A stretch of 59,733 nucleotides of DNA from Clostridia bacterium (GCA_022798895.1 JAAWNJ010000001.1:1-59733); one strand, 5' to 3'; positions 2,995 to 30,894 are shown, numbered from the stretch's first letter. A program made the numbers and translations. Notes: generated by a model not told the origin, from the letters alone.

Positions 2995-5900
2995 CTAAAA
3001 ATTAAATGCTGGCTCTCCTGTTTGCATATAATATTCGTCTGCTCCTGCTTGTACAACTTGGAATATTGCGTTTTTATCTGCTTTTCCTTCTACTTCTACT
3101 TTTATTCTTGAGTTTCTCATACCTTCTATTACTGCTTCTTTTACTTGTTGTGGTAAACTACTACTTACTTCTACATTGCTTTGTGTAGCTATTGCTCCAC
3201 TTATTTGACCATAATCTATAAATTGGTTTGTGTCTATTTTGAAATCGTTTGGATTAATAATAATTCCTTCTGTGCTTAGGTTATTCTTTAAAGAACCTAC
3301 CGCTGATAAAGCTAAGTTCTTTGCATTTTTTACCGCTTCTGGTATCATATCTTTAATACCTAATGTAAAACCTTCTCCGTTATAAACGCCTAGTTGTCTT
3401 GTCTTTTTTGATGGTGAATGTGATAACTGGGCTTGTGCTACACTTTGCAAAGAAGCATTTACCATATCTTTAGCTGCATTTTTTACATAGCCTATTGCAC
3501 TTCTAATACCATTTGCATAACCTGTTGCATTATCTTTTCCTTTTTGGTAGTAATCTCCTGCTCCATCATCAAGCCCTTTTGCTCCTGTATTTGCAACTTT
3601 ATAGTTTACATTATACATATTACCTGATTGAGCATTTATTGCATTTATTGCATCTTGAACTTTCTGTTTTGCTTCTGGTTTCATTTTTTCAAGTGCTTTA
3701 TTAAATGCTTTCTTTCCTTCTTCTGATAAATTGCCATATACTTCTCTTGTTTCTTCTGTCATTCCTGTTACTGCTATTGTAGAAGCTAATATTTTTGCTC
3801 TTGTTTCTTCTGGCAATTTAGATAATGCCTTATTATATTCTCCACTGCTCTTATTTGCCATACTTGCCCATTTTTCAATGTAAGGTTGGCTATTTATATC
3901 AACGTTTCCAATTATGGTATCTAAAATCATTTGCGTTGTTTCGTCAGTGCTTAACAATCTTTGTTCATATTCTGTAGCTGATTTAGAAGATAATTTTTTC
4001 CAAGCATCTATACTTTCTGGTGTCAAGTCCTCTACTGTTTTAGTTTGCTGTGTTAGAGTTCTTATTGTAGTTTCATTTATTTCTTTGCCTTTTTCTTTTG
4101 ATGTATCAGATATATCATCATAATATTTTGTCCAATCCTTTTTAGCCGTTTCAATCTTTTTGCCTGTTTTTTCTAACTCTTTTCTGATTTTTTCTTCTTC
4201 ATCTTTCGCTTTGTTATAGTTAATATCAGCCCAAGCTGTTTTCATACCATTAACTCCTGAAATTTGGTTAGCCAACTTTCCATTTGTTTCTTCAAGTATT
4301 TTATTCTTGTCTGCTTGTGCTTTTGCTGTATTTTCCTCTGCTTCTTTTAATTGCTTTTGCAATTCTAATTGATATTTAAGTTCTTCCTTATAGGTTTCTT
4401 GATATACTTCTAGTTTTATTTGTTCTTCTTTTTTCTTGATGTACTCATCTGTCTTTTTAACTAAGTCATCATAACTTTTTACTACTTTTCCATTTTGTGT
4501 AATTTGATTACCTGTTAGCTTATATTCTGTGCCTAATGCTTTATTTACATCATTTAAAATATATTCAACTCTTGTTTTATAACTATCTTTAACTTTTCCA
4601 TTGCTGTCTATCATGTCTTTCATACTGTCAATTTGTTCTTTAGCAACTTGTAAGTTGATGAGTTGACTATCTTTATTTTTATTAATAGCTTCTATTGTAG
4701 CTTCATGGCTTGATATTAATTGCTCGTGTCTCTTTTTTAAATCTTCAATAGCTTGTGAATTTGCTTGCAAGTTATTATTGTATCCAAGCATTGCCGAACC
4801 AGCACTTAGTACTAATCCTGTTAATGCTCCTACTGCTGTTCCTACTGGTCCGAATACTGAACCTAGCATTGCTCCACTTGCTGTAGCTCCTGCTATACTT
4901 CCTGTTAGTTTTGCAATAGCTTCTCCTGTTCCTATAGTTCCATTTGACAAATCTTGCATTGAACTATAAGTAAGTCCACATGAAGCAACTAAGCCTGCTA
5001 TTCCACCTGCTACTCTTACAGTTTTAGGTATTAAATCTAACATTCCTTGACCTGTTTTAGCTAATGCTTTTCCTACCCCTTCGCCATGTTTTATGTATGT
5101 TTTAAATTGGTCTGCTCCTATTTTTAGCCAAGTTCCAGTATTTTTTAGTCCTGTTCCAACTAAAGCTAATCCATTTTGAAAACTTGTAGTGGGAGTTATT
5201 GTTCCTGTTAGTACTCCACCTAAAGTTCTTACATATCCTATTAATTTTAATAACTTTGCTCCTATATATAGACCTACTAACAATTTTGCTATATTTAATA
5301 TCTTCTTTAAATTAGTATTTCCTTGACCTAATTCCCAAGTAATTTCTCCTGTTAATGGATTTACCTTTTTCGTAAAGCCCAACCATTCCATTATTTTATC
5401 TCTAATTTCAGTAGCTTTACTCTTTACTTTATCCATCATATTGTCATATTCTTTCATAGCATCAAGTAATCTTTGGTCTATTCCTCCAACACTTGCTCCT
5501 CCAGAACCACCACTTGTTTTATCTGGTAAAGTAATATTATTTATTTCATCAAAACCCATTAATTGTTTTTTAAGTTCTTTTGCCTTTCCGCTAGCTGTTC
5601 CTAAATCATCTGCTAAATCATCTGCTCCAACACCTGCACTTATATTTACATTTTGGTCTGATACTTCAAAACCAAATAGCTTTGCAAGCATTTTAAGAAG
5701 TTCATTTATTACCATCATAATTGCGTTTACATATGGAAGTATGTTGCCTAATAATCCTTGCCATAGATTACCCATATTTCTCTTAAATGCTGTTAATTGT
5801 GCATTAAATATCCTTAATTGGTTAGCTGGACTATCCATAGTTTTAGCAAAATCGCCATGTGCTAATGAGGCTTGCCTTAATACTATGATATATCTAGCAA

Positions 5901-6990
5901 TCATTTTTTCTGCTTGTGATAATTGTTTTGTACTTCTTTCAATACCTAATTCATCTAATAAAGGTTCTAGTGATTGTTGTGTTATATCTAATCCTAAATC
6001 TCTTAGTGGCTTAGTTTGTCCTGATAAACCTGCTCTTAGCTTTTGCATTGCATTTTCTGGGTCTATGTTATATAAAGAAGATAAGTCATATCCTAACTTC
6101 GTAAAGTTTTCTGATATCTTATAAGATGGTTCATCTCCTATTCCCATAGACTTAGACATAGCATTAAATAAAGCCTGATATTCCATGCTTTCTTCTATAT
6201 TTATCTTTAATTTGTCTGACAACTTTTCTTGAAAAGCCATAGCTTTTGTATAGTATTTGCTTGCTTCTCTATCTAAGTTTCCATATTGGTCAACAGTTTT
6301 TCCCATTGATACATTAAATAAGTTTTGTGTTTCTACAAAGTCTATACTTTCGGTTGTTGCTTCTTTAAAGAAACCTACTGCTTTTCTTACTCCTAATGCT
6401 ATCGTCCCTATACCTAATGCTGTTTTTAAGTTACTACCAAAATTAGATTTTTTAACTACATTTTTTGTGCTATTGTTAATATTTTTAAGTTCTTTATCAA
6501 ATTGTTTCAATGCGTCTGTTCCAAATGTTTTTTCAATATACTGTCTTAATTCTTGCATTGAGCCTTTTACATCTGTTGTTTCAATATTTATCATTTTTAG
6601 CATTTCTTTAAGTTTATTAGCTTTCGATGTATCACCAAAGGCTCTACATTGTACTTCTGTTTCTTTTAATTTCTCTGCTAAATTTAATATATCTTGTTCA
6701 GCCATTCCTATTTTTTGAGGAGTTTTTTCAATCTCTTGATTTACTTCTTTTATAGGAGCAGAATTAATATTCCTTATTTCACTAGCTAAATTAGCAAAAT
6801 TATTATTTAAAGTCATAAGGTATTTATTAGTTAGTATGCTTTGGTCTATTAGACTTTGAAAAGGTTTTAATGATATAACACCTTCTACAGAACTTCTTAA
6901 TGTCTTAACTTCGCTTATTAACTTGTCTATTCCACTAACTGCACTACCTGCATCTACTGCAATTTTATTCTCTAATGTATTTTCTGCCCT
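2995..6990 (-). CDS. Tape measure protein; proposed AGG start (ATG alternative at 6816)
   Basis: More than 1270 aa with coiled-coil and Gly/Ala-rich hydrophobic blocks, located between the chaperones and Dit. The frame is open 58 codons above ATG 6816, which has no SD. AGGAG + 9 nt + AGG at 6990 overlaps the upstream stop (TAAGG). Confidence 0.85.
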   Translation of the reverse strand, partial: RAENTLENKIAVDAGSAVSGIDKLISEVKTLRSSVEGVISLKPFQSLIDQSILTNKYLMTLNNNFANLASEIRNINSAPIKEVNQEIEKTPQKIGMAEQDILNLAEKLKETEVQCRAFGDTSKANKLKEMLKMINIETTDVKGSMQELRQYIEKTFGTDALKQFDKELKNINNSTKNVVKKSNFGSNLKTALGIGTIALGVRKAVGFFKEATTESIDFVETQNLFNVSMGKTVDQYGNLDREASKYYTKAMAFQEKLSDKLKINIEESMEYQALFNAMSKSMGIGDEPSYKISENFTKLGYDLSSLYNIDPENAMQKLRAGLSGQTKPLRDLGLDITQQSLEPLLDELGIERSTKQLSQAEKMIARYIIVLRQASLAHGDFAKTMDSPANQLRIFNAQLTAFKRNMGNLWQGLLGNILPYVNAIMMVINELLKMLAKLFGFEVSDQNVNISAGVGADDLADDLGTASGKAKELKKQLMGFDEINNITLPDKTSGGSGGASVGGIDQRLLDAMKEYDNMMDKVKSKATEIRDKIMEWLGFTKKVNPLTGEITWELGQGNTNLKKILNIAKLLVGLYIGAKLLKLIGYVRTLGGVLTGTITPTTSFQNGLALVGTGLKNTGTWLKIGADQFKTYIKHGEGVGKALAKTGQGMLDLIPKTVRVAGGIAGLVASCGLTYSSMQDLSNGTIGTGEAIAKLTGSIAGATASGAMLGSVFGPVGTAVGALTGLVLSAGSAMLGYNNNLQANSQAIEDLKKRHEQLISSHEATIEAINKNKDSQLINLQVAKEQIDSMKDMIDSNGKVKDSYKTRVEYILNDVNKALGTEYKLTGNQITQNGKVVKSYDDLVKKTDEYIKKKEEQIKLEVYQETYKEELKYQLELQKQLKEAEENTAKAQADKNKILEETNGKLANQISGVNGMKTAWADINYNKAKDEEEKIRKELEKTGKKIETAKKDWTKYYDDISDTSKEKGKEINETTIRTLTQQTKTVEDLTPESIDAWKKLSSKSATEYEQRLLSTDETTQMILDTIIGNVDINSQPYIEKWASMANKSSGEYNKALSKLPEETRAKILASTIAVTGMTEETREVYGNLSEEGKKAFNKALEKMKPEAKQKVQDAINAINAQSGNMYNVNYKVANTGAKGLDDGAGDYYQKGKDNATGYANGIRSAIGYVKNAAKDMVNASLQSVAQAQLSHSPSKKTRQLGVYNGEGFTLGIKDMIPEAVKNAKNLALSAVGSLKNNLSTEGIIINPNDFKIDTNQFIDYGQISGAIATQSNVEVSSSLPQQVKEAVIEGMRNSRIKVEVEGKADKNAIFQVVQAGADEYYMQTGEPAFNF

Positions 6991-17301: not shown

Positions 17302-17547
17302 TTACCCTAATTCCTCCAATCTTCTCTTATCTCTTTCATTTGTTGGAAAGCCTACTATTTCTACTAAACTGTACTTTGGTAAATCTAGTGCTATTTCTAT
17401 TTTCCTTGCTCTTACTGAACCTATTTGTATTGAACCATTTATTATATTTGACACATTTTGCTTAGGTACTTGCAATTTATCTGCCAACTGCTGTTGTGTC
17501 ATATTCTTTTTTTGTAATATTAGTTTTATATATGTTCCTATTTGCCT
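17302..17547 (-). CDS. XRE-family HTH regulator; proposed AGG start
   Basis: The ORF track starts at MTQQQLADKL, inside the HTH. Extending to AGG 17547 (GGAGGTG + 7 nt) restores xQIGTYIKLILQKKNMTQQQLADKLQV, a typical XRE N-terminus. Confidence 0.7.
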   Translation of the reverse strand, partial: RQIGTYIKLILQKKNMTQQQLADKLQVPKQNVSNIINGSIQIGSVRARKIEIALDLPKYSLVEIVGFPTNERDKRRLEELG

Positions 17548-17855
17548 TTTAAAGCACCTCCATATTTATTGTTTAAATAAGCTTCACATGCTTTATCTTT
17601 GCTTTTATATAATGATTTCGTAAAATAATATTCAAACTTGTTATTATTTGTATTTAAGCAATTACATACTATTATTAAATCTGCTCCTATTGTATTATCT
17701 ATTTCATATCCCATAAATTTTACTTTTGTTGGCTCTTTATTGTTGTCTGCTAAATAATAATATTTGCCTTCTTCTAATTCATTTTTTATCTTTGTATCTA
17801 CTTCATATACACTTTCATTATAATTAAGTCTTATTTTTATTGTATTTTCACACAT
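17538..17855 (-). CDS. Hypothetical protein
   Basis: 105 aa; AGGAGA + ATG. Confidence 0.6.
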   Translation of the reverse strand: MCENTIKIRLNYNESVYEVDTKIKNELEEGKYYYLADNNKEPTKVKFMGYEIDNTIGADLIIVCNCLNTNNNKFEYYFTKSLYKSKDKACEAYLNNKYGGALKGK

Positions 17856-18233
17856 ACTATTTCTCCTAACTATATTCTCTATGCAATGATATAAGGGTTT
17901 CGTCTTTCGACCTCGTGGACAATTATACTTTTATCGTATAACTTGTTCCTTTACCACCATTCTTTTTAATATCACTGCATACAAAATATAAACACTATGT
18001 AATGATATATTTGTTTTTTGCTTACGCAAGGAAAAGAATGCTTTTATTGTACAATTATTATGCTATTCTAAAACAGATAACCTAAGTATTTTACATATAT
18101 TACTACATACTATTGGCTTATATTTAGCGAGCATAAGCTAAACTCGACATAGTATTGATTGTTTGTAGTGCATTTTATAGTAATCAACTAACTATAAAAG
18201 ACTTCCCTAGCTTCTATGTAAAGCTTTCGTGGG

Positions 18234-18326
18234 TGGCATCGGAGAAGGGGAATTGCACCCTTTATTCTTCCATCGGCTTTCATTTCCTAGTCCCCGTTGG
18301 AGTGCTACTTTTACACTATCTCCAAT
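18234..18326 (-). ncRNA. tRNA-like RNA with expanded anticodon region, CCA-ended
   Basis: Acceptor ATTGGAG/CTCCGAT (one G-U). D arm AGTG-TAAAAGTAG-CACT. T arm AAGGG-TGCAATTC-CCCTT. Discriminator G + CCA. 38 nt replace the anticodon/variable region (stem AACGG/CCGAT, 17-nt loop). Confidence 0.45.
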
Positions 18327-18331
18327 ATATA

Positions 18332-18427
18332 TGGCACTCTGGCGAATAGACCTATCTAGAATGATACATAGGGCGAGTTATGTTCTCCCATTATTCCCTA
18401 ATATTATCTATTCTCTTAATCCAGAGT
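18332..18427 (-). ncRNA. 96-nt CCA-ended tRNA-like RNA
   Basis: Perfect 7-bp acceptor ACTCTGG/CCAGAGT + G + CCA. Inner 7-bp helix GAATAGA/TCTATTC. Internal GGGAG..CTC(G)CCC stem with the loop sequence ..AACATAA.. (contains CAT). Confidence 0.4.
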
Positions 18428-18514
18428 ATTAGGTTTGTGTAGTTTTCCTTCTATGAGGGATATTACAATACCCCTCTGCATTGACAGGTAATTACCTTAT
18501 TCAATATATTCTAC

Positions 18515-18588
18515 TGGGTGCAGGTAGCAGTAACGCTCTGCTCGCTTCGCCTAAGGAGGACGATATGTTACTTCTACACCAACCTGCA
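18515..18588 (-). tRNA. Atypical tRNA with anticodon CCU (reads AGG)
   Basis: 74-nt cloverleaf. Acceptor TGCAGGT/ACCTGCA. D stem GTGT/ACAT. Anticodon stem TCGTC/GGCGA with loop CTCCTTA. Variable loop AGCG. T stem AGCAG/CTGCT. Discriminator C + CCA. D loop AGAAGTA lacks GG, and T loop AGCGTTA lacks TTC. Confidence 0.6.
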
Positions 18589-18593
18589 ATATA

Positions 18594-18669
18594 TGGTTGC
18601 TGAGTGTCGGAATTGAACCGACTTTTTGTAGCTTATGAAACTACTAAGATACCTTACCTACCACTCGCA
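18594..18669 (-). tRNA. tRNA with CAU anticodon (Met/Ile2-type), irregular acceptor
   Basis: T arm GTCGG-TTCAATT-CCGAC. Anticodon arm GTAGT-TTCATAA-GCTAC. Encoded A + CCA. Acceptor TGCGAGT/ACTC(A)GCA has a bulged A. Lies 5 nt (tatat) upstream of the CCU tRNA. Confidence 0.55.
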
Positions 18670-19244
18670 ATATAAAACAAATATATTATTAGAGTTTCCC
18701 CTTACAATTAATTATCTATCTTAATTATTCAACCACTAGGAAGATAAATCTGAGCATAAAGTTGCGACCTCTATACTTTTTACCCCTTTTCAAAGTTCCT
18801 TTTACAAAACCTTTACCCTACATACGATTGATTACGTATAAATTCCACCCATCATTCAGATATTGATGTTATTTTCCTAATAACAAAATTTGCTCTGTTT
18901 TTATCTCGTTTGGGCTACTTTAACCTAGTTATGTCTTATAGTTCCTTTTCAAGAACTTCACGAGAAATAGTCTTACTTAGCATTACCTACATTGCTTTAT
19001 ATTTGCTAAATATAAGTTATAGGCTTATTGACTACTAGTCCGTCTATTGCGACTACGACAACTCTAGTGTTTTATTAAGCGATAATATTTGCACATTATC
19101 CAGTATTGGTTTTAACACCTACTCTACATACATTACTGTACATAGAAAGCAACCTTACAAACGTATCCGTCTGTCTAACTACTTATCGGATAATTCCAAG
19201 CCACATGATATTGTGGTTTAGCACTTGGGTAATAATATATTTAT
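18670..19244 (-). ncRNA. ORF-free structured RNA segment between tRNA-like genes
   Basis: No SD-preceded ORF on either strand, and visibly higher G+C than the flanks. Many nested helices, e.g. CCAAG..CCACA-ATATCA-TGTGG-CTTGG (19196-19228), TATCCG..CGGATA, and GATAAT-GTGCAAAT-ATTATC. Confidence 0.35.
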
Positions 19245-19323
19245 TGGAGCTTTCTATAGGATTTGAACCTACATTAAAGGTTTAATTACTATTCCAATGT
19301 GTTTCCATTTACACTAAGAAAGC
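19245..19323 (-). ncRNA. tRNA-like RNA lacking a canonical anticodon arm
   Basis: Perfect acceptor GCTTTCT/AGAAAGC + T + CCA. D arm GTGT-AAATGGAA-ACAC. Canonical T arm GTAGG-TTCAAAT-CCTAT. The 25-nt anticodon region forms only an AT hairpin. Confidence 0.45.
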
Positions 19324-19426
19324 ATATACAGGAATTGCACTATTCCAACTAGTATGTAGAGGCTTAATTTGCCTCTAGGCTGTGCATTTCCAGAAACCTT
19401 TTCTACAACTTGGTAGATAGGTAATT

Positions 19427-19567
19427 TGTGTAGGTAATAATTTGCACATTACATGTTCCCTCTCACGCACAATTTAACCGACAGTCACCGAATTTAATCT
19501 CGTGTCACATTGCTAACTACTAAGAGGAAACTTACAGTTTAGCGTCTACCTATTCCGCCACTACACA
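19427..19567 (-). ncRNA. Expanded tRNA-Tyr-like RNA (~141 nt)
   Basis: Acceptor TGTGTAG...CTACACA. Class-II-type D arm GCGG-AATAGGTAGA-CGC. CTGTAAG loop (GTA) on a bulged stem. ~65-nt insert. T-like arm GTAATG-TGCAAAT-TATTAC. No encoded CCA. Confidence 0.35.
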
Positions 19568-19688
19568 TCTTTGCAAGCCTAATCACTTGCTAGGAATTGA
19601 AGCCCTCATATTTTATATAAATATTACTTGCCACCTATTTATTTCACAATTCTTTAACTATATAAAGATAGTTAGTGATTGTTAAAAA

Positions 19689-19949
19689 CTAATCAATTTT
19701 AATACACTTATTTTCAAATTTCTTGTAAGCATCTAAGTATAATTCTTTTTTATCTCCGTTATATGTAAGTTCATAATACATTCCATCAGATAAACTTGTA
19801 CTTAATAATGCTTTATTGTTTTGTAATGTTTTGCAACTCCATACAATATATACTGAAAAACTTTCTACTTTATCTGTTTTGTCTAAATGCTCTAAAGCAT
19901 ATTTTCTAACTATGTCTTTGCATAATTCTTCAAAATTATCATTACTCAT
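19689..19949 (-). CDS. Hypothetical protein
   Basis: 86 aa; AGGAGG + 9 nt + ATG. Confidence 0.65.
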   Translation of the reverse strand: MSNDNFEELCKDIVRKYALEHLDKTDKVESFSVYIVWSCKTLQNNKALLSTSLSDGMYYELTYNGDKKELYLDAYKKFENKCIKID

Positions 19950-27457: not shown

Positions 27458-28654
27458 CTAGTTTTTTGCCTTAAAATTATATATAGGCTTTATTATTTTT
27501 TGTATTTCTACTGTATCTTGTATATTATCTATTATCTCTTGCATAGGTTTATATACAAATGGTGCTTCATCTATTGTTTCTTCTACTACACTTGTTGTAT
27601 AAATATCTTTCATACTTTCTTTAAAATCTTCTAGCTTAAATATTTCTTTTGCTTTATGTCTTGACATTATCCTTCCTGCTCCGTGTGGCGCTGAATTATT
27701 CCAATCTTCATTTCCTTTTCCTATTGCTATAATACTTCCATCTCTCATATTAATTGGAATTAAAACTTTTTCTCCTTTTTTAGCTGATATAGCACCTTTA
27801 CGAACTATATTATCTTCAAATGATATATAATTGTGTATTGTTTCAAAATATTGTTGGTTATTTAATATTCTGTATTTTTTTAATATTTCTATTGCTATAT
27901 GTCCTCTATTTATAGTTGCATAGCTTTGACATATCTTCATATCGTGTAAATACATTTCTCCATATTTGCCTTCTAAATAACATAATTCGTTTGGTAAATT
28001 AGGCTTATTGTCTTTATATTCTTTTTCTAGTTCTTTTAATGCTTTTTGTATTTCTGCTTTTCTTCCCTGCTCTTTGTATGTTTTGATTATTTCTTCTTTC
28101 TTTTGATACATTTCTTCTTTTCCAGAGCATAGTTCTATTGCTAGATTTTGATAATAGTCTGCTACCTGCTTTCCTAAATTTCTACTACCTGTATGAATTA
28201 CTAAATATTTATTACCTTCATCATCAATGTCTACTTCTATAAAGTGATTTCCACCGCCTAGAGTTCCTATCGCTCTATTAAATTTCTTTGTCTCTTTTAA
28301 TTCTCTTAGGCAATATAATTCATTTATCGGCTCAAATTCTAATAGTTTATGTTCTCTTATATTTCTTCCTGCTGGTATGCAATTATTTATTACTTCATCT
28401 AGTTTTTGTAAATCTAAATCTATCTTTCCTAATTCTACACATAGCATACCACACCCAATATCTACTCCAACTATATTAGGTATTACTTTATTACCCAAAT
28501 CTGCTGTAAAACCAATTACACAGCCTTTTCCTGCATGTACATCTGGCATTATTCTTACTTTGCAATCTCTAAAAGGTTCTTGTTGTAGCAACAACTCTAT
28601 TTGCTCTACCGCTTCTTGTTCTATATTATCTGTGAATATTTTTAAATCTTTCAC
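27458..28654 (-). CDS. rtcB: RtcB-family 3'-phosphate/5'-hydroxyl RNA ligase
   Basis: 398 aa with the motifs MPDVHAGKG, DIGCGM, GGGNHFIE, HTGSRNLG and APHGAGR. Confidence 0.85.
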   Translation of the reverse strand: MKDLKIFTDNIEQEAVEQIELLLQQEPFRDCKVRIMPDVHAGKGCVIGFTADLGNKVIPNIVGVDIGCGMLCVELGKIDLDLQKLDEVINNCIPAGRNIREHKLLEFEPINELYCLRELKETKKFNRAIGTLGGGNHFIEVDIDDEGNKYLVIHTGSRNLGKQVADYYQNLAIELCSGKEEMYQKKEEIIKTYKEQGRKAEIQKALKELEKEYKDNKPNLPNELCYLEGKYGEMYLHDMKICQSYATINRGHIAIEILKKYRILNNQQYFETIHNYISFEDNIVRKGAISAKKGEKVLIPINMRDGSIIAIGKGNEDWNNSAPHGAGRIMSRHKAKEIFKLEDFKESMKDIYTTSVVEETIDEAPFVYKPMQEIIDNIQDTVEIQKIIKPIYNFKAKN

Positions 28655-30264: not shown

Positions 30265-30894
30265 CTAATCAAAATCTTTTACTTTTATTTTAACTATAAC
30301 CCTATTACCACATCTATCTTGCATTTCTACAACTGTTCTACCAACTATACCTTCACTATTAGCAGTACCTATCTTTGATTTTGGTTTTGTTTTAACATAG
30401 TCTACCGCTTCCTGTATTGTTCCTTCTAAAACTATTGGTACTGCTTCTATATTGAAATAATTTGCTATATCTTCTACACTTTCTCTAGGTTGCCAATTTC
30501 CTGCTATCATTACATCAAATAAGATAAAGTCTTGATTATCTCTATATAAGCCACCATTCTGTATTTTAGCACCATATCCCTCGCCTACTAATACTACTTC
30601 TGTTGCTCCAAATTTTTGCTCGAATAGTTGCTCGTTTACTTCTCCACCAAATAACTCATTTAATCTATTTACTAATTCTGCTGGTATTTGTGCCTTATCT
30701 GTTCTTCCATAAAAACTTACTCTATGTCCGTCCCAGTGTATTCTTATATTTGTTCCATCTATCTTTTCTGTAAATTGCCATTTATTGTCTTTTAAATATT
30801 CTACTGTTTTATTTCTATATTGTCCTTCTATTAATTTTTTTGTTTTTTCATCTCTTTCAAAAAGAGTTTCTATTTTATGATATTCTTTTAACAT
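30265..30894 (-). CDS. ATP-dependent RNA ligase family protein
   Basis: 209 aa. Nucleotidyltransferase motif I EKIDGTN, ..VLVGEGYG.., and ..VIVKIKVKDF (motif V-like). Confidence 0.7.
   Translation of the reverse strand: MLKEYHKIETLFERDEKTKKLIEGQYRNKTVEYLKDNKWQFTEKIDGTNIRIHWDGHRVSFYGRTDKAQIPAELVNRLNELFGGEVNEQLFEQKFGATEVVLVGEGYGAKIQNGGLYRDNQDFILFDVMIAGNWQPRESVEDIANYFNIEAVPIVLEGTIQEAVDYVKTKPKSKIGTANSEGIVGRTVVEMQDRCGNRVIVKIKVKDFD

What the first reader, a model, noticed from the sequence alone, without database searches (positions are those of the whole stretch)
17880..19688. A 1.8-kb ORF-free locus carries an array of CCA-ending tRNA-like RNAs with expanded or missing anticodon arms
Between two coding blocks there is no plausible ORF, and the G+C content is visibly higher.

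On the minus strand I can fold at least six acceptor-stem-closed elements:
- 19427-19567: Tyr-like with GUA loop and a ~65-nt insert
- 19245-19323: perfect acceptor, D and T arms, no anticodon arm
- 18594-18669: CAU tRNA
- 18515-18588: CCU tRNA
- 18332-18427: 96 nt, internal GGG/CCC stem with a CAU-containing loop
- 18234-18326: 17-nt loop in place of the anticodon loop

Two pairs are separated by the same tatat spacer (18589-93 and 18327-31). Several T loops share G at position 55 (UGCAA or AGCGU). Two D loops share AAGUA, which suggests a co-evolving family rather than random decay.

The 575 nt at 18670-19244 is rich in nested helices. Large ornate RNAs such as ROOL and GOLLD are known to sit in Firmicute prophages beside tRNAs, so this may be related or may be a new class.
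Basis: partly seen in the sequence, partly recalled or inferred. Interest (0 to 1): 0.7.

Follow-up and report, generated by a model that had tools for sequence, protein, structure and literature searches.

The report
Phage ROOL RNA with tRNA mimics
The gene-free stretch is a prophage RNA gene cluster: a textbook ROOL RNA lies wedged between transfer-RNA genes, and two of its odd tRNA look-alikes belong to recurrent, apparently uncatalogued phage RNA families that keep the top half of a tRNA but have lost the part that reads codons.

Summary
Window 17856-19688 (minus strand) has no ORF, is richer in G+C than its flanks, and lies at the early/late junction of a low-GC prophage.

The 575-nt core is a full-length ROOL RNA (Rfam RF03087, 311 bits; threshold 99). 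ROOL beside phage tRNAs is already published.

Close relatives carry the same ROOL inside arrays of 6-8 ordinary tRNAs that abut both ROOL ends. The likeliest mechanism is one transcript cut by RNase P and the tRNA 3'-end enzymes.

The window's six tRNA-like elements are a mixed set:
- E3 (CAU) and E4 (Arg-CCU) are plausible tRNAs.
- E2 is a tRNA-Thr whose anticodon arm has degenerated.
- E5 is an orphan.
- E1 and E6 each belong to a recurrent phage family. At least 110 and 17 distinct members were found. Their stems covary strongly and Rfam 15 matches neither.

E1-type and E6-type RNAs keep the acceptor, D and T arms. Both have a 13-bp acceptor/T stack and a G55 T loop. A hypervariable insert replaces the anticodon region, so they almost certainly do not decode. 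Their function is unknown.

Verdict: a known ROOL/tRNA island plus two probably undescribed tRNA-mimic families.

The parts
19657..19685 (-). Promoter-like site: TTAACA, 17-nt spacer, TATAGT
   Evidence: Consensus scan, 10 of 12 matches. The same block precedes the array in L026, L032 and L193. The number of promoter-like sites in the region is not above chance, so conservation is the only support.
19427..19567 (-). E1: an E1-type tRNA-like RNA. It has a 7-bp acceptor (UGUGUAG/CUACACA), U8-G9, a Leu-type D arm (GCGG-AAUAGGUAGA-CGC), an 86-nt insert that starts with a 5-bp hairpin carrying a GUA triloop, and a 6-bp T stem with loop UGCAAAU. No CCA is encoded.
   Evidence: Homologs in L146, L171, L094 and L183. 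Family of at least 110 distinct members. Covariation score 0.666 against 0.156 for shuffles. It sits in a roughly 200-nt insertion specific to this phage. No Rfam hit.
19324..19426 (-). G1: conserved structured leader/spacer
   Evidence: z = -3.08. Conserved in L026, L077 and L123, 14 loci in all.
19245..19323 (-). E2: a tRNA-Thr derivative (AGU) with a degenerate anticodon arm and an encoded CCA. Its 3' end marks the 5' end of ROOL.
   Evidence: ARAGORN default. Rfam tRNA 44 bits. Homologs are canonical tRNA-Thr(UGU) with the same acceptor; compensatory changes occur in the D and T stems.
18671..19252 (-). ROOL RNA, full length
   Evidence: RF03087, 311.2 bits against a gathering score of 99.1, model positions 1-574. 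Orthologs score 314-336 bits in L026, L032, L057, L073, L206 and L239.
18594..18669 (-). E3: tRNA(CAU) with an 8-bp acceptor carrying a one-base bulge, and an encoded CCA. Its 5' end marks the 3' end of ROOL.
   Evidence: Rfam tRNA 29.6 bits. ARAGORN -ps. Cloverleaf MFE, z = -2.84. Homologs in L002 and L088 have the same irregular acceptor.
18515..18588 (-). E4: tRNA-Arg(CCU) with a non-canonical elbow (D loop AGAAGUA, T loop AGCGUUA) and an encoded CCA
   Evidence: ARAGORN -ps. tRNA-Arg(CCU) follows ROOL in 13 of the 20 close-clade loci. The same T loop occurs in the tRNA-Pro(UGG) of L220.
18428..18514 (-). G2: conserved spacer with two hairpins
   Evidence: z = -3.09. Conserved in L193, L050, L095 and L026.
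18332..18427 (-). E5: orphan element with an acceptor-like closing stem (ACUCUGG/CCAGAGU), G, then CCA. It is not a cloverleaf.
   Evidence: z = -2.05. No homolog of the whole element. Its 3' part resembles the hairpin module that precedes E6-type copies in L203 and L204. In relatives this slot holds tRNA-Pro or tRNA-Gln.
18234..18326 (-). E6: an E6-type tRNA-like RNA. It has an 8-bp acceptor, D arm GUGU-AAAAGUA-GCAC, a 7-bp central stem with a conserved 17-nt loop, a 5-bp T stem with loop UGCAAUU, then G-CCA.
   Evidence: ARAGORN -ps90. The MFE equals the proposed fold. 17 distinct relatives. Covariation score 0.292 against 0.112 for shuffles, with 7 of 7 central-stem pairs changed on both sides. 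No Rfam hit.
18113..18233 (-). T1: partly conserved tail (AGCUAGGGAAGUCU...UAUAGUUAGUUGAUUACUAUAA hairpin)
   Evidence: Shared with L094, L171, L202, L211 and L206. z = -1.25.
17880..18112 (-). Two tandem domains of about 110 nt, each closed by a conserved 13-15-bp inverted repeat, directly upstream of the first downstream ORF (17855-17538)
   Evidence: 17880-17990 has z = -4.14. The 17992-18112 fold is closed by the same repeat, and the L193 homolog has z = -3.75. Partial homology to L088.

Best explanation
The locus is a prophage non-coding RNA operon at the boundary between early and late genes.

ORDER ON THE MINUS STRAND
- a promoter near 19685-19657
- E1, a tRNA mimic
- a structured leader (G1)
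- E2, a degenerate tRNA-Thr
- ROOL
- tRNA(CAU) (E3)
- tRNA-Arg(CCU) (E4)
- a structured spacer (G2)
- E5
- E6, a second kind of tRNA mimic
- a structured tail that runs into the late genes

SHOWN
- The identity of ROOL.
- In this ROOL clade a tRNA 3' end sits directly before the ROOL closing helix, and a tRNA 5' end follows it within 0-5 nt.
- E1 and E6 belong to covarying families that keep the acceptor, D and T arms and lack an anticodon arm.

INFERRED
- The array is made as one transcript.
- Host RNase P cuts at each tRNA or tRNA-like 5' end.
- RNase Z, or 3' exonucleases where CCA is encoded, trim each 3' end. This releases ROOL with exact ends, together with the tRNAs and the mimics.
- ROOL then presumably forms the published homo-oligomeric cage.
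- E3 and E4 probably decode.
- E2 probably survives mainly as the processing handle for the ROOL 5' end.

INFERRED BY ANALOGY
- E1-type and E6-type RNAs have a 13-bp acceptor/T stack, as tRNA-Sec does, and G instead of U at position 55, as the staphylococcal non-proteogenic tRNA-Gly do.
- They are therefore built to be handled by tRNA-end enzymes while staying out of EF-Tu and the ribosome.
- They present a hypervariable domain on a tRNA scaffold. Its target is unknown.
For: ROOL
- 311 bits, full length.

ABUTMENT
- In Rfam coordinates the ROOL ends overlap the flanking tRNAs by 1-8 nt in the window and in L026, L032, L057, L073, L206 and L239.
- 19 of 20 non-redundant close-clade ROOLs have a same-strand tRNA 3-13 nt after the end of my ROOL HMM. 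That HMM stops about 8 nt short of the Rfam model.
- All 9 upstream tRNAs that ARAGORN detects end 1-6 nt past the first HMM column, so they abut it or slightly overlap it.

SINGLE TRANSCRIPT
- A conserved promoter-like site is present and no minus-strand intrinsic terminator lies inside the locus.

ANCESTRY
- L094 and L171 hold the same ROOL inside 6-8 canonical tRNAs.

E2
- It keeps the acceptor of tRNA-Thr(UGU). It has compensatory changes in the D and T stems but a degenerate anticodon arm.

E6 FAMILY
- 90% of cells are paired. The covariation score is 0.292 against 0.112 for shuffles (0 of 500 shuffles reach it), and slid registers give at most 0.071.
- A search by T arm returns an invariant D arm, and a search by D arm returns the same T arm.

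E1 FAMILY
- All 64 G55-type members selected by D arm have a 6-bp T stem. Inserts are 8-252 nt.
- Of 117 hits selected by T arm, 95 have the Leu-type D loop, against 1.3% of random windows. In 90 of them the acceptor closes in register.
- Covariation score is 0.666 against 0.156 for shuffles.
- Only 2 of 110 members have a 5-bp stem with a 7-nt loop at the anticodon position.

G55 PRECEDENT
- Non-proteogenic tRNA-Gly genes have TGC or TGT instead of TTC in the T loop. They lack pseudouridine and bind EF-Tu and the ribosome poorly (PMC7826273).
Against: - No expression or RNA-end data exist for this locus.
- The number of promoter-like sites in the region is not above chance.
- Distant ROOLs have tRNAs 27-1000 nt away, so abutment is specific to this clade.
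- The one ROOL with experimentally mapped ends was described without any mention of tRNAs or RNase P (PMC5643018).
- E1-type and E6-type elements also occur where neither ROOL nor tRNAs are nearby, so they are not merely punctuation.
- The E6 fold is not thermodynamically unusual (z = -0.65).
- Exclusion from EF-Tu and the ribosome rests on analogy only.
- My E1 parser required near-complete pairing, which inflates the percentage of paired cells.
Confidence: 0.6

Rival explanations
1. The odd elements are simply decaying pseudogenes of an ordinary phage tRNA array and have no function of their own.
For: - Relatives have fully canonical arrays in the same slots.
- E2's anticodon arm has degenerated relative to tRNA-Thr(UGU) homologs.
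- E5 has no homolog.
- E3 and E4 score at or below the tRNA thresholds.
Against: - E1-type and E6-type architectures recur in many unrelated phage contigs. Their loops are nearly invariant, their stems change in a compensatory way, and their inserts are swapped wholesale.
- Decay would not preserve a 13-bp stack and a G55 loop across more than 100 lineages.
- The locus is identical in three independent samples.
Confidence: 0.12
2. E1-type and E6-type RNAs are decoys or sponges for host factors that attack or use the tRNA acceptor end or elbow, for example anti-phage toxins that modify the CCA end. They protect real tRNAs during infection.
For: - The prophage invests in tRNA repair, with RtcB and a second RNA ligase.
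- The mimics keep exactly the acceptor, T and D half and lose the decoding half.
- The inserts are hypervariable, as expected in an arms race.
Against: - RtcB is not co-located with the mimics: 1 of 64 E1-type loci within the held flanks.
- CCA is not encoded in E1-type and is UCA in 3 of 13 E6-type members.
- No defence or counter-defence gene is consistently adjacent.
- A decoy does not need a structured variable domain.
Confidence: 0.12
3. They are non-ribosomal aminoacyl carriers, like the staphylococcal non-proteogenic tRNA-Gly. E1-type RNAs would be charged by LeuRS, which does not read the anticodon, and would donate the amino acid to some transferase.
For: - The E1-type D arm is identical to that of canonical phage tRNA-Leu(UAA).
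- The G55 T loop matches the non-proteogenic tRNA-Gly signature.
- From established knowledge, bacterial LeuRS identity rests on A73 and the D-arm/elbow architecture, not on the anticodon.
Against: - The discriminator base is not conserved: A 30, U 17, G 10, C 7 of 64, against A in 16 of 18 canonical tRNA-Leu.
- No Fem-, Aat- or CDPS-like transferase recurs nearby.
Confidence: 0.06
4. The conserved blocks act at the DNA level or as cis-regulators of late genes (operator, pac or att sites, or an mRNA leader), not as free RNAs.
For: - The position is constant: downstream of a late-activator-like ORF and upstream of terminase, on the late-gene strand.
- The tail has inverted repeats whose sequence is conserved and does not covary.
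- No terminator separates the array from the late genes.
Against: - Compensatory changes at all 7 acceptor pairs, 5 of 6 T-stem pairs and 7 of 7 E6 central-stem pairs show selection on RNA pairing.
- The architecture is tRNA-like down to U8 and the positions of the D and T loops.
Confidence: 0.06
5. They are intron-containing tRNA genes whose inserts are excised and whose halves are joined by the phage RtcB ligase.
For: - RtcB is a tRNA-splicing ligase family and is encoded 8 kb away.
- The inserts sit where the anticodon region should be.
Against: - No anticodon stem-loop can be reconstituted. Only 2 of 110 E1-type members have a 5-bp stem with a 7-nt loop at the right place.
- The minimal member L354 has only a short linker there (8-9 nt by my two counts).
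- The E6 centre is one continuous covarying helix.
- RtcB is rarely nearby.
Confidence: 0.03

Closest known systems
ROOL RNA (Rfam RF03087; Weinberg 2017, PMC5737381; cryo-EM cages, Kretsch 2025, PMC12286853)
   Same: Window 18671-19252 matches the whole 574-position model at 311 bits. It lies in a prophage next to tRNAs, as published for the class.
   Different: Nothing about the ROOL itself differs. What is added here is that in this clade tRNAs abut both ends within a few nt. The papers I could read mention only proximity to tRNAs or possible co-transcription.
Staphylococcal non-proteogenic tRNA-Gly (PMC7826273)
   Same: The T loop has UGC instead of UUC, so there is no U55 to convert to pseudouridine. 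The D loop is altered. The published molecules bind EF-Tu and the ribosome poorly, and the determinants lie in the D and T arms.
   Different: Those are normal-length tRNAs with a UCC anticodon. They are charged by GlyRS and found only in staphylococci. E1-type and E6-type RNAs lack an anticodon arm, have a 13-bp stack and are phage-encoded. Aminoacylation is untested.
tRNA-Sec and other 13-bp tRNAs (review PMC7609411 was listed but not read; the 8/5 rule is from my own knowledge)
   Same: The acceptor plus T stack is 13 bp, not 12 bp: 8/5 in E6-type and 7/6 in E1-type.
   Different: There is no UCA anticodon, no 6-bp D stem and no separate anticodon and variable arms. No selA, selB or SECIS context was looked for or seen.
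mascRNA/MALAT1 and the mitochondrial tRNA-punctuation model (PMC11693755 was listed; the rest is from my own knowledge)
   Same: A tRNA or tRNA-like fold next to a long non-coding RNA serves as the RNase P / RNase Z cutting signal that defines the ends of the long RNA.
   Different: Those are eukaryotic nuclear or organellar systems. Here processing is inferred from gene abutment only.
GOLLD RNA with embedded or adjacent tRNAs (PMC12286853, PMC12990946)
   Same: A large phage RNA that forms cages and sits inside tRNA arrays, with tRNAs covalently linked in the precursor.
   Different: A different RNA family. In GOLLD the tRNA can sit inside the RNA, whereas here tRNAs flank ROOL's closing helix.
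Bacterial YrlA Y RNAs (PMC4201824)
   Same: A non-decoding RNA with a tRNA-like acceptor/T/D module. It is found in some phages and is linked genetically to RtcB in enterobacteria (the last point is from my own knowledge).
   Different: In YrlA the 5' and 3' ends lie at the Ro-binding stem and the 'acceptor' is closed by a loop. Here the acceptor is open and the distal helix is closed. There is no Rfam Y-RNA hit. I did not search for a Ro/Rsr gene.
Phage T4 stable RNAs species 1 and 2 (rnaC, rnaD) in the T4 tRNA cluster (from my own knowledge)
   Same: Small stable RNAs of unknown function, encoded within a phage tRNA cluster and matured by the tRNA-processing enzymes.
   Different: No sequence or structural comparison was made here.

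Membership tests
ROOL RNA (RF03087) | Covariance-model score above the curated gathering score over the full model | tested here: met
   311.2 bits against 99.1, model positions 1-574 of 574, E = 1e-70.
ROOL RNA (RF03087) | Conserved sequence blocks and multi-stem architecture (for example ACAAUAGACG, UCUGAAUGAUGGGUG, UGCUCAGA) | tested here: met
   All are present in the cmscan alignment, with few non-canonical pairs.
ROOL RNA (RF03087) | Phage or prophage context near tRNAs | tested here: met
   Integrase, terminase, portal, head and tape-measure genes are present. tRNAs flank ROOL.
ROOL RNA (RF03087) | Assembly into a homo-oligomeric cage | not testable with these tools
   Needs cryo-EM or native gels.
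Canonical decoding tRNA | Cloverleaf with a 7/5 acceptor/T stack, a 5-bp anticodon stem and a 7-nt anticodon loop | tested here: not met
   Not met for E1, E5 and E6: there is no anticodon arm and the stack is 13 bp in E1 and E6. Met, with irregularities, for E3 and E4. Marginal for E2, whose anticodon stem has 3 Watson-Crick pairs, 1 G-U and 1 mismatch.
Canonical decoding tRNA | Detected by tRNA finders at default thresholds | tested here: not met
   Only E2 passes ARAGORN at default settings. Only E2 and E3 reach the Rfam gathering score. E4 needs -ps and E6 needs -ps90. E1 and E5 are never called.
Canonical decoding tRNA | U54-U55-C56 T loop and G18-G19 D loop | tested here: not met
   E1, E4 and E6 have G55. 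E4 and E6 have A18. E2 and E3 are canonical.
E1-type phage tRNA-like RNA (defined here) | 7-bp acceptor, U8-G9, D arm GCGG-AAUAGGUAGA-CGC, a variable insert, and (C/U)AU followed by a 6-bp T stem with a UGCAAAU loop | tested here: met
   Window 19567-19427 has every feature.
E6-type phage tRNA-like RNA (defined here) | 8-bp acceptor, UA, D arm GUGU-AAAAGUA-GCAC, a closed variable helix, RGAWUAAA, a 5-bp T stem with a UGCAAUU loop, and G73 | tested here: met
   Window 18326-18234 is row 1 of alignment A1.
Non-proteogenic tRNA (staphylococcal tRNA-Gly type) | UGC or UGU instead of UUC in the T loop | tested here: met
   E1 has UGCAAAU and E6 has UGCAAUU. Definition from PMC7826273.
Non-proteogenic tRNA (staphylococcal tRNA-Gly type) | A normal tRNA body with a Gly anticodon, charged by GlyRS and used by Fem transferases | tested here: not met
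   There is no anticodon arm and no Fem-like neighbour. Charging cannot be tested here.
tRNA-Sec | 13-bp acceptor/T stack | tested here: met
   8/5 in E6-type and 7/6 in E1-type.
tRNA-Sec | UCA anticodon, long variable arm, extended D stem | tested here: not met
   The centre is a single covarying helix or a variable insert, and the D stem has 3-4 bp.
YrlA / bacterial Y RNA | Match to the Rfam Y-RNA models, a Ro-binding stem formed by the 5' and 3' ends, and an adjacent rsr gene | tested here: not met
   No such Rfam hit at E up to 10. The termini lie at the acceptor, not at the distal stem. I did not search for an rsr gene.
skipping-rope RNA (RF02924) | Covariance-model hit in the window | tested here: not met
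   Absent from the window, although it lies next to E6-type copies in 5 related loci.

The most novel reading that the evidence does not exclude
E1-type and E6-type elements are two undescribed, widespread classes of phage-encoded tRNA mimics that do not decode. Both have a 13-bp acceptor/T stack and a G55 elbow, with a hypervariable structured domain in place of the anticodon arm. They would be matured by the host tRNA-end machinery but kept out of translation. The swappable domain would be a specificity module in phage-host or phage-phage conflict, or in control of late genes. In this ROOL clade the same tRNA-processing logic would also define the ends of the ROOL cage RNA.
Probability: 0.4. 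Interest if true: 0.8.

Novelty: new variant of a known kind. Interest (0 to 1): 0.6.

Why it matters
- **ROOL maturation.** ROOL is one of the largest bacterial RNAs with no known function, and how it is made is unknown. Exact abutment by tRNAs gives a directly testable maturation route through RNase P and RNase Z, and it defines the native ends for structural work.
- **New RNA families.** They are absent from Rfam 15.
- **An unusual feature combination.** They combine two features that independently mark tRNAs excluded from normal translation: G55 and a 13-bp stack. If they prove to be stable RNAs, they would be a new way for phages to use the tRNA fold. They would also be an annotation trap, because tRNA finders either miss them or miscall them as 'tRNA-Pro'.

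Tried and rejected
- **BLAST against phage genomes.** blastn of the locus against 50,697 GenBank phage records, in near and distant modes, found nothing. An exact 32-mer from ROOL found nothing in IMG/VR.
- **Downstream flank gene.** ORF 17538-17855 has no relatives in IMG/VR.
- **Antisense-guide idea.** I tested whether the variable loops pair with targets, as in the P1 C4 and P4 CI RNAs. The longest complementary runs between the E1, E5 or E6 variable parts and either strand of the window are 16-18 nt. Shuffled queries give 14-20 nt. The apparent excess of 3-mismatch matches to the E6 loop (7 observed, 0.3 expected) is purine-rich coding sequence in the same sense as the loop, not complementary targets. 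Rejected.
- **Conserved protein partner.** Clustering 1,283 neighbouring ORFs from 63 E1-type loci gave no family present in more than 7 loci. Only late-activator-like and terminase genes recur.
- **RtcB linkage.** RtcB lies within the held flanks of 1 of 64 E1-type loci.
- **Presence in cultured or species-representative genomes.** All 27 hits to the E6 T-arm motif among 185,579 genomes are chance matches inside coding sequence.
- **tmRNA.** ARAGORN in tmRNA mode found none.
- **Ribozyme at 17915-17895.** The GUCGAAAGACGAAAC stretch gives no Rfam hit at E up to 10.
- **Supplements of the viral structured-RNA catalogue.** The supplements of PMC10690425 are not held, so I could not check whether the two families are already listed there.
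- **Parsing errors.** Two of my parsing scripts had offset errors. I reran them, and only searches are used.


Full report
**1. Setting.** The window is a low-GC (about 28%) prophage. It carries an integrase next to host-type tRNA-Gln and tRNA-His genes, together with terminase, portal, major head and tape-measure genes. The host is an uncultured bacterium known only from a metagenome-assembled genome. Two other metagenomes contain the 1,833-nt locus without a single difference. The locus lies between a DUF6275 gene (19689-19949) and a small ORF (17538-17855), all on the minus strand, upstream of the terminase.

**2. Checking the observation.** No minus-strand ORF of 40 aa or more lies in 17856-19688. 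G+C rises to 0.33-0.39, against 0.22-0.29 in the flanks.

- Rfam at gathering thresholds finds ROOL at 18671-19252 (311.2 bits; threshold 99.1; full model). It also finds tRNA at 19248-19323 (44 bits) and at 18601-18666 (29.6 bits).
- ARAGORN at default settings calls only 19245-19323 (Thr-AGU).
- At relaxed settings ARAGORN adds 18515-18588 (Arg-CCU), 18599-18668 (Met-CAU) and 18234-18326.
- The relaxed settings find nothing else in the 59.7-kb window apart from the two host tRNAs. They give 0 and 1 hits in 200 Markov shuffles of the region.
- The two 'tatat' spacers, the G55 T loops and the AAGUA D loops are all present.
- Five of the six elements end in CCA. E1 does not.

**3. Relatives.** The DUF6275 gene retrieved 80 IMG/VR loci, and a 14-mer from the ROOL core retrieved 120 more.

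- nhmmer shows that the locus is a mosaic whose homology blocks break at the element borders.
- The nearest relatives have ROOL at 314-336 bits, directly flanked by high-scoring canonical tRNAs.
- L171 carries Thr, Phe, [ROOL], Arg, Pro, Trp, Gln, Ser, Ser. L094 carries Thr, [ROOL], Arg, Pro, Trp, Gln, Ser.
- The window array is therefore a derived form of an ordinary phage ROOL/tRNA array.

**4. ROOL is wedged between tRNAs.** In the window, the ROOL closing helix starts right after the CCA of E2 and ends 1-3 nt before the 5' end of E3.

- Among 20 non-redundant ROOLs of this clade, 19 have a same-strand tRNA 3-13 nt after the last column of my ROOL HMM. That HMM stops about 8 nt short of the Rfam model.
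- Every upstream tRNA that ARAGORN detects ends 1-6 nt past the first HMM column, so it abuts or slightly overlaps the start of ROOL. The other loci have an upstream tRNA that only Rfam detects.
- More distant ROOLs have tRNAs 27-1000 nt away.
- A promoter-like TTAACA-17-TATAGT site at 19685-19657 is conserved in relatives. No minus-strand intrinsic terminator lies inside the locus.
- I infer a single precursor cut by RNase P and the tRNA 3'-end enzymes.
- The literature I could read says only that ROOL is 'near tRNA islands' or possibly co-transcribed with them. The one paper that mapped ROOL ends does not mention tRNAs or RNase P.

**5. The six elements.**

- **E2** has the acceptor of the canonical tRNA-Thr(UGU) found in L026, L077, L093 and L206. 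It shows compensatory changes in the D and T stems, but its anticodon arm has degenerated and it has A34. This fits a tRNA retained mainly as a processing handle.
- **E3** (CAU) folds as a cloverleaf with a bulged 8-bp acceptor. The homologs in L002 and L088 share the irregular acceptor.
- **E4** is tRNA-Arg(CCU), the commonest tRNA after ROOL in this clade (13 of 20). In the window it has D loop AGAAGUA and T loop AGCGUUA.
- **E5** has a 7-8-bp closing stem followed by CCA but no cloverleaf and no homolog. Its slot holds tRNA-Pro or tRNA-Gln in relatives.

**6. The E6-type family.**

- Searching IMG/VR with the E6 T arm alone returned copies whose acceptor and D arm are nearly invariant. Their centres differ completely in sequence and length, from 21 to 49 nt.
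- Searching with the D arm alone returned further copies with the same T arm.
- On a 13-sequence alignment the proposed fold is 90% paired. The fold is an 8-bp acceptor, a D stem, a central helix and a 5-bp T stem. All 7 central-stem pairs and 2 acceptor pairs change on both sides.
- The covariation score is 0.292, against 0.112 for shuffles (0 of 500 reach it) and at most 0.071 for slid registers.
- The window copy shares its central stem with L216 and L223, with two compensatory pairs, and shares a conserved 17-nt loop.
- The D-arm search also found normal-length phage tRNAs with proper anticodons and the same unusual elbow: L214 (His), L236 (Trp) and L220 (Pro). The elbow is therefore a phage tRNA lineage trait.
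- L216, L223 and L228 have no ROOL and no Rfam-detectable tRNA nearby. E6-type is therefore an independent gene.
- None of the 27 hits to the E6 T-arm motif in 185,579 species genomes is an E6-type element.

**7. The E1-type family.**

- E1's D arm is identical to that of canonical phage tRNA-Leu(UAA). Searching with it returned 119 unique sequences.
- Eighteen of these are ordinary tRNA-Leu: a 5-bp T stem in 17 of 18, 31-35 nt between the D and T arms in 13 of 18, and A73 in 16 of 18.
- Sixty-four have a G55-type T loop (UGCAAAU in 53). All 64 have a 6-bp T stem, giving a 7/6 = 13-bp stack. Their inserts are 8-252 nt, the discriminator base varies, no CCA is encoded, and there are 47 different acceptor sequences.
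- In the reciprocal search by T arm alone, 95 of 117 unique hits have the Leu-type D loop upstream, against 1.3% of random windows. In 90 of them the acceptor closes in register, U8-G9 is present in all 90, and the D stem covaries. Sixty come from loci the D-arm search had not found.
- With the inserts removed, all 7 acceptor pairs and 5 of 6 T-stem pairs show changes on both sides. The covariation score is 0.666, against 0.156 for shuffles and at most 0.129 for slid registers. My parser required near-complete pairing, so the percentage of paired cells is inflated. It did not require the T-loop motif.
- Only 2 of 110 distinct members have a 5-bp stem with a 7-nt loop where the anticodon arm should be.
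- Rfam matches none of the E1-type elements, even at E up to 0.1.

**8. Genomic position and partners.**

- Both families lie on the late-gene strand. They sit a few hundred nt after a late-transcription-activator-like ORF (phrog_248 / phrog_36) and 1-2.6 kb before terminase and portal genes.
- No protein family recurs in more than 7 of 63 loci.
- The window phage encodes RtcB and a second RNA ligase, but RtcB is rarely near the mimics in the sequence I hold.
- No antisense target for the variable domains exists in the window beyond what chance gives.

**9. Interpretation.**

- ROOL, and its association with phage tRNAs, is known.
- The exact tRNA bracketing is a modest but testable extension of that knowledge.
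- E1-type and E6-type RNAs keep what RNase P, RNase Z and the CCA-adding enzyme recognise: the acceptor/T stack and the elbow.
- They also carry two features that elsewhere mark tRNAs kept out of ordinary translation. One is G instead of U at position 55, as in the staphylococcal non-proteogenic tRNA-Gly (PMC7826273). The other is a 13-bp stack, as in tRNA-Sec (from my own knowledge).
- I therefore read them as non-decoding tRNA mimics that display a swappable structured domain. What that domain binds is unknown.
- They may be among the unnamed 'tRNA-like' candidates of a 2023 catalogue of viral structured RNAs. I could not check this.

**10. Verdict.** The '575-nt new class' reading is wrong, and the 'array of one co-evolving family' reading is only partly right. 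The new content is the two tRNA-mimic families and the tRNA-punctuated ROOL.

Noticed in passing
window 27458-28654 (-) and 30265-30894 (-): The prophage encodes two RNA-repair ligases: RtcB (phrog_1075, E = 2.6e-132; PF01139) and a PF09414-type RNA ligase. This suggests conflict with host nucleases that target tRNAs.
   Followed up: partly
window 17880-17990 and 17992-18112 (-): Two tandem domains of about 110 nt are each closed by a conserved 13-15-bp inverted repeat (UAUGYAGURAUAU...AUAUCAUURCAUA). They lie just upstream of the ribosome-binding site of ORF 17855-17538. z = -4.1 for the first. A homolog in L193 has z = -3.75. The stem sequence is conserved and does not covary, so it could be an RNA stem or a DNA-level repeat.
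   Followed up: partly
window 19324-19426 and 18428-18514 (-): Two structured spacers (z about -3.1 each) are conserved in relatives L026, L077, L123, L193, L050 and L095. Their function is unknown.
   Followed up: partly
L201 854-986, L205 13381-13513, L206 5944-6108, L209 303-467, L211 3496-3586: skipping-rope RNA (RF02924), another RNA of unknown function, lies immediately beside E6-type elements in five phage contigs. It is absent from the window.
   Followed up: no
L203, L204, L211, L212 (just upstream of E6-type or tRNA genes); window 18360-18335: A hairpin with loop GAUUCUAGUUA, followed by an AU-rich spacer, recurs directly upstream of tRNA or tRNA-like genes. The 3' part of the window's orphan element E5 resembles it.
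   Followed up: no
L288, L300, L303, L312, L315, L320, L330, L341, L369; L314, L342, L355, L359, L372, L393, L395, L396: In the first group of loci, the E1-type insert contains a second, canonical T-arm hairpin (GGUUCGAWUCC). In the second group, the insertion lies inside the T loop itself (GGGUGAC[...]CAAAUCC).
   Followed up: no
L214 1018-1088, L236 4424-4494, L220 (about 5855-5930): These normal-length phage tRNAs (His-GUG, Trp-CCA, Pro-UGG) have A18 in the D loop and G55 in the T loop. L214 and L236 score as ordinary tRNAs with Rfam; L220 got no Rfam tRNA hit at the gathering threshold. The A18/G55 combination looks like covariation of a tertiary pair.
   Followed up: partly
L242 1934-2211; L003 2883-2963: L242, a large phage contig with a big tRNA array, contains a permuted tmRNA (RF04321, 74 bits). 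L003 contains an RT-18 RNA (RF03021, 64 bits).
   Followed up: no
window 17895-17915 (-): The stretch GUCCACGAGGUCGAAAGACGAAACCC is shared with L088 and superficially resembles a ribozyme core. It gives no Rfam hit at E up to 10.
   Followed up: partly
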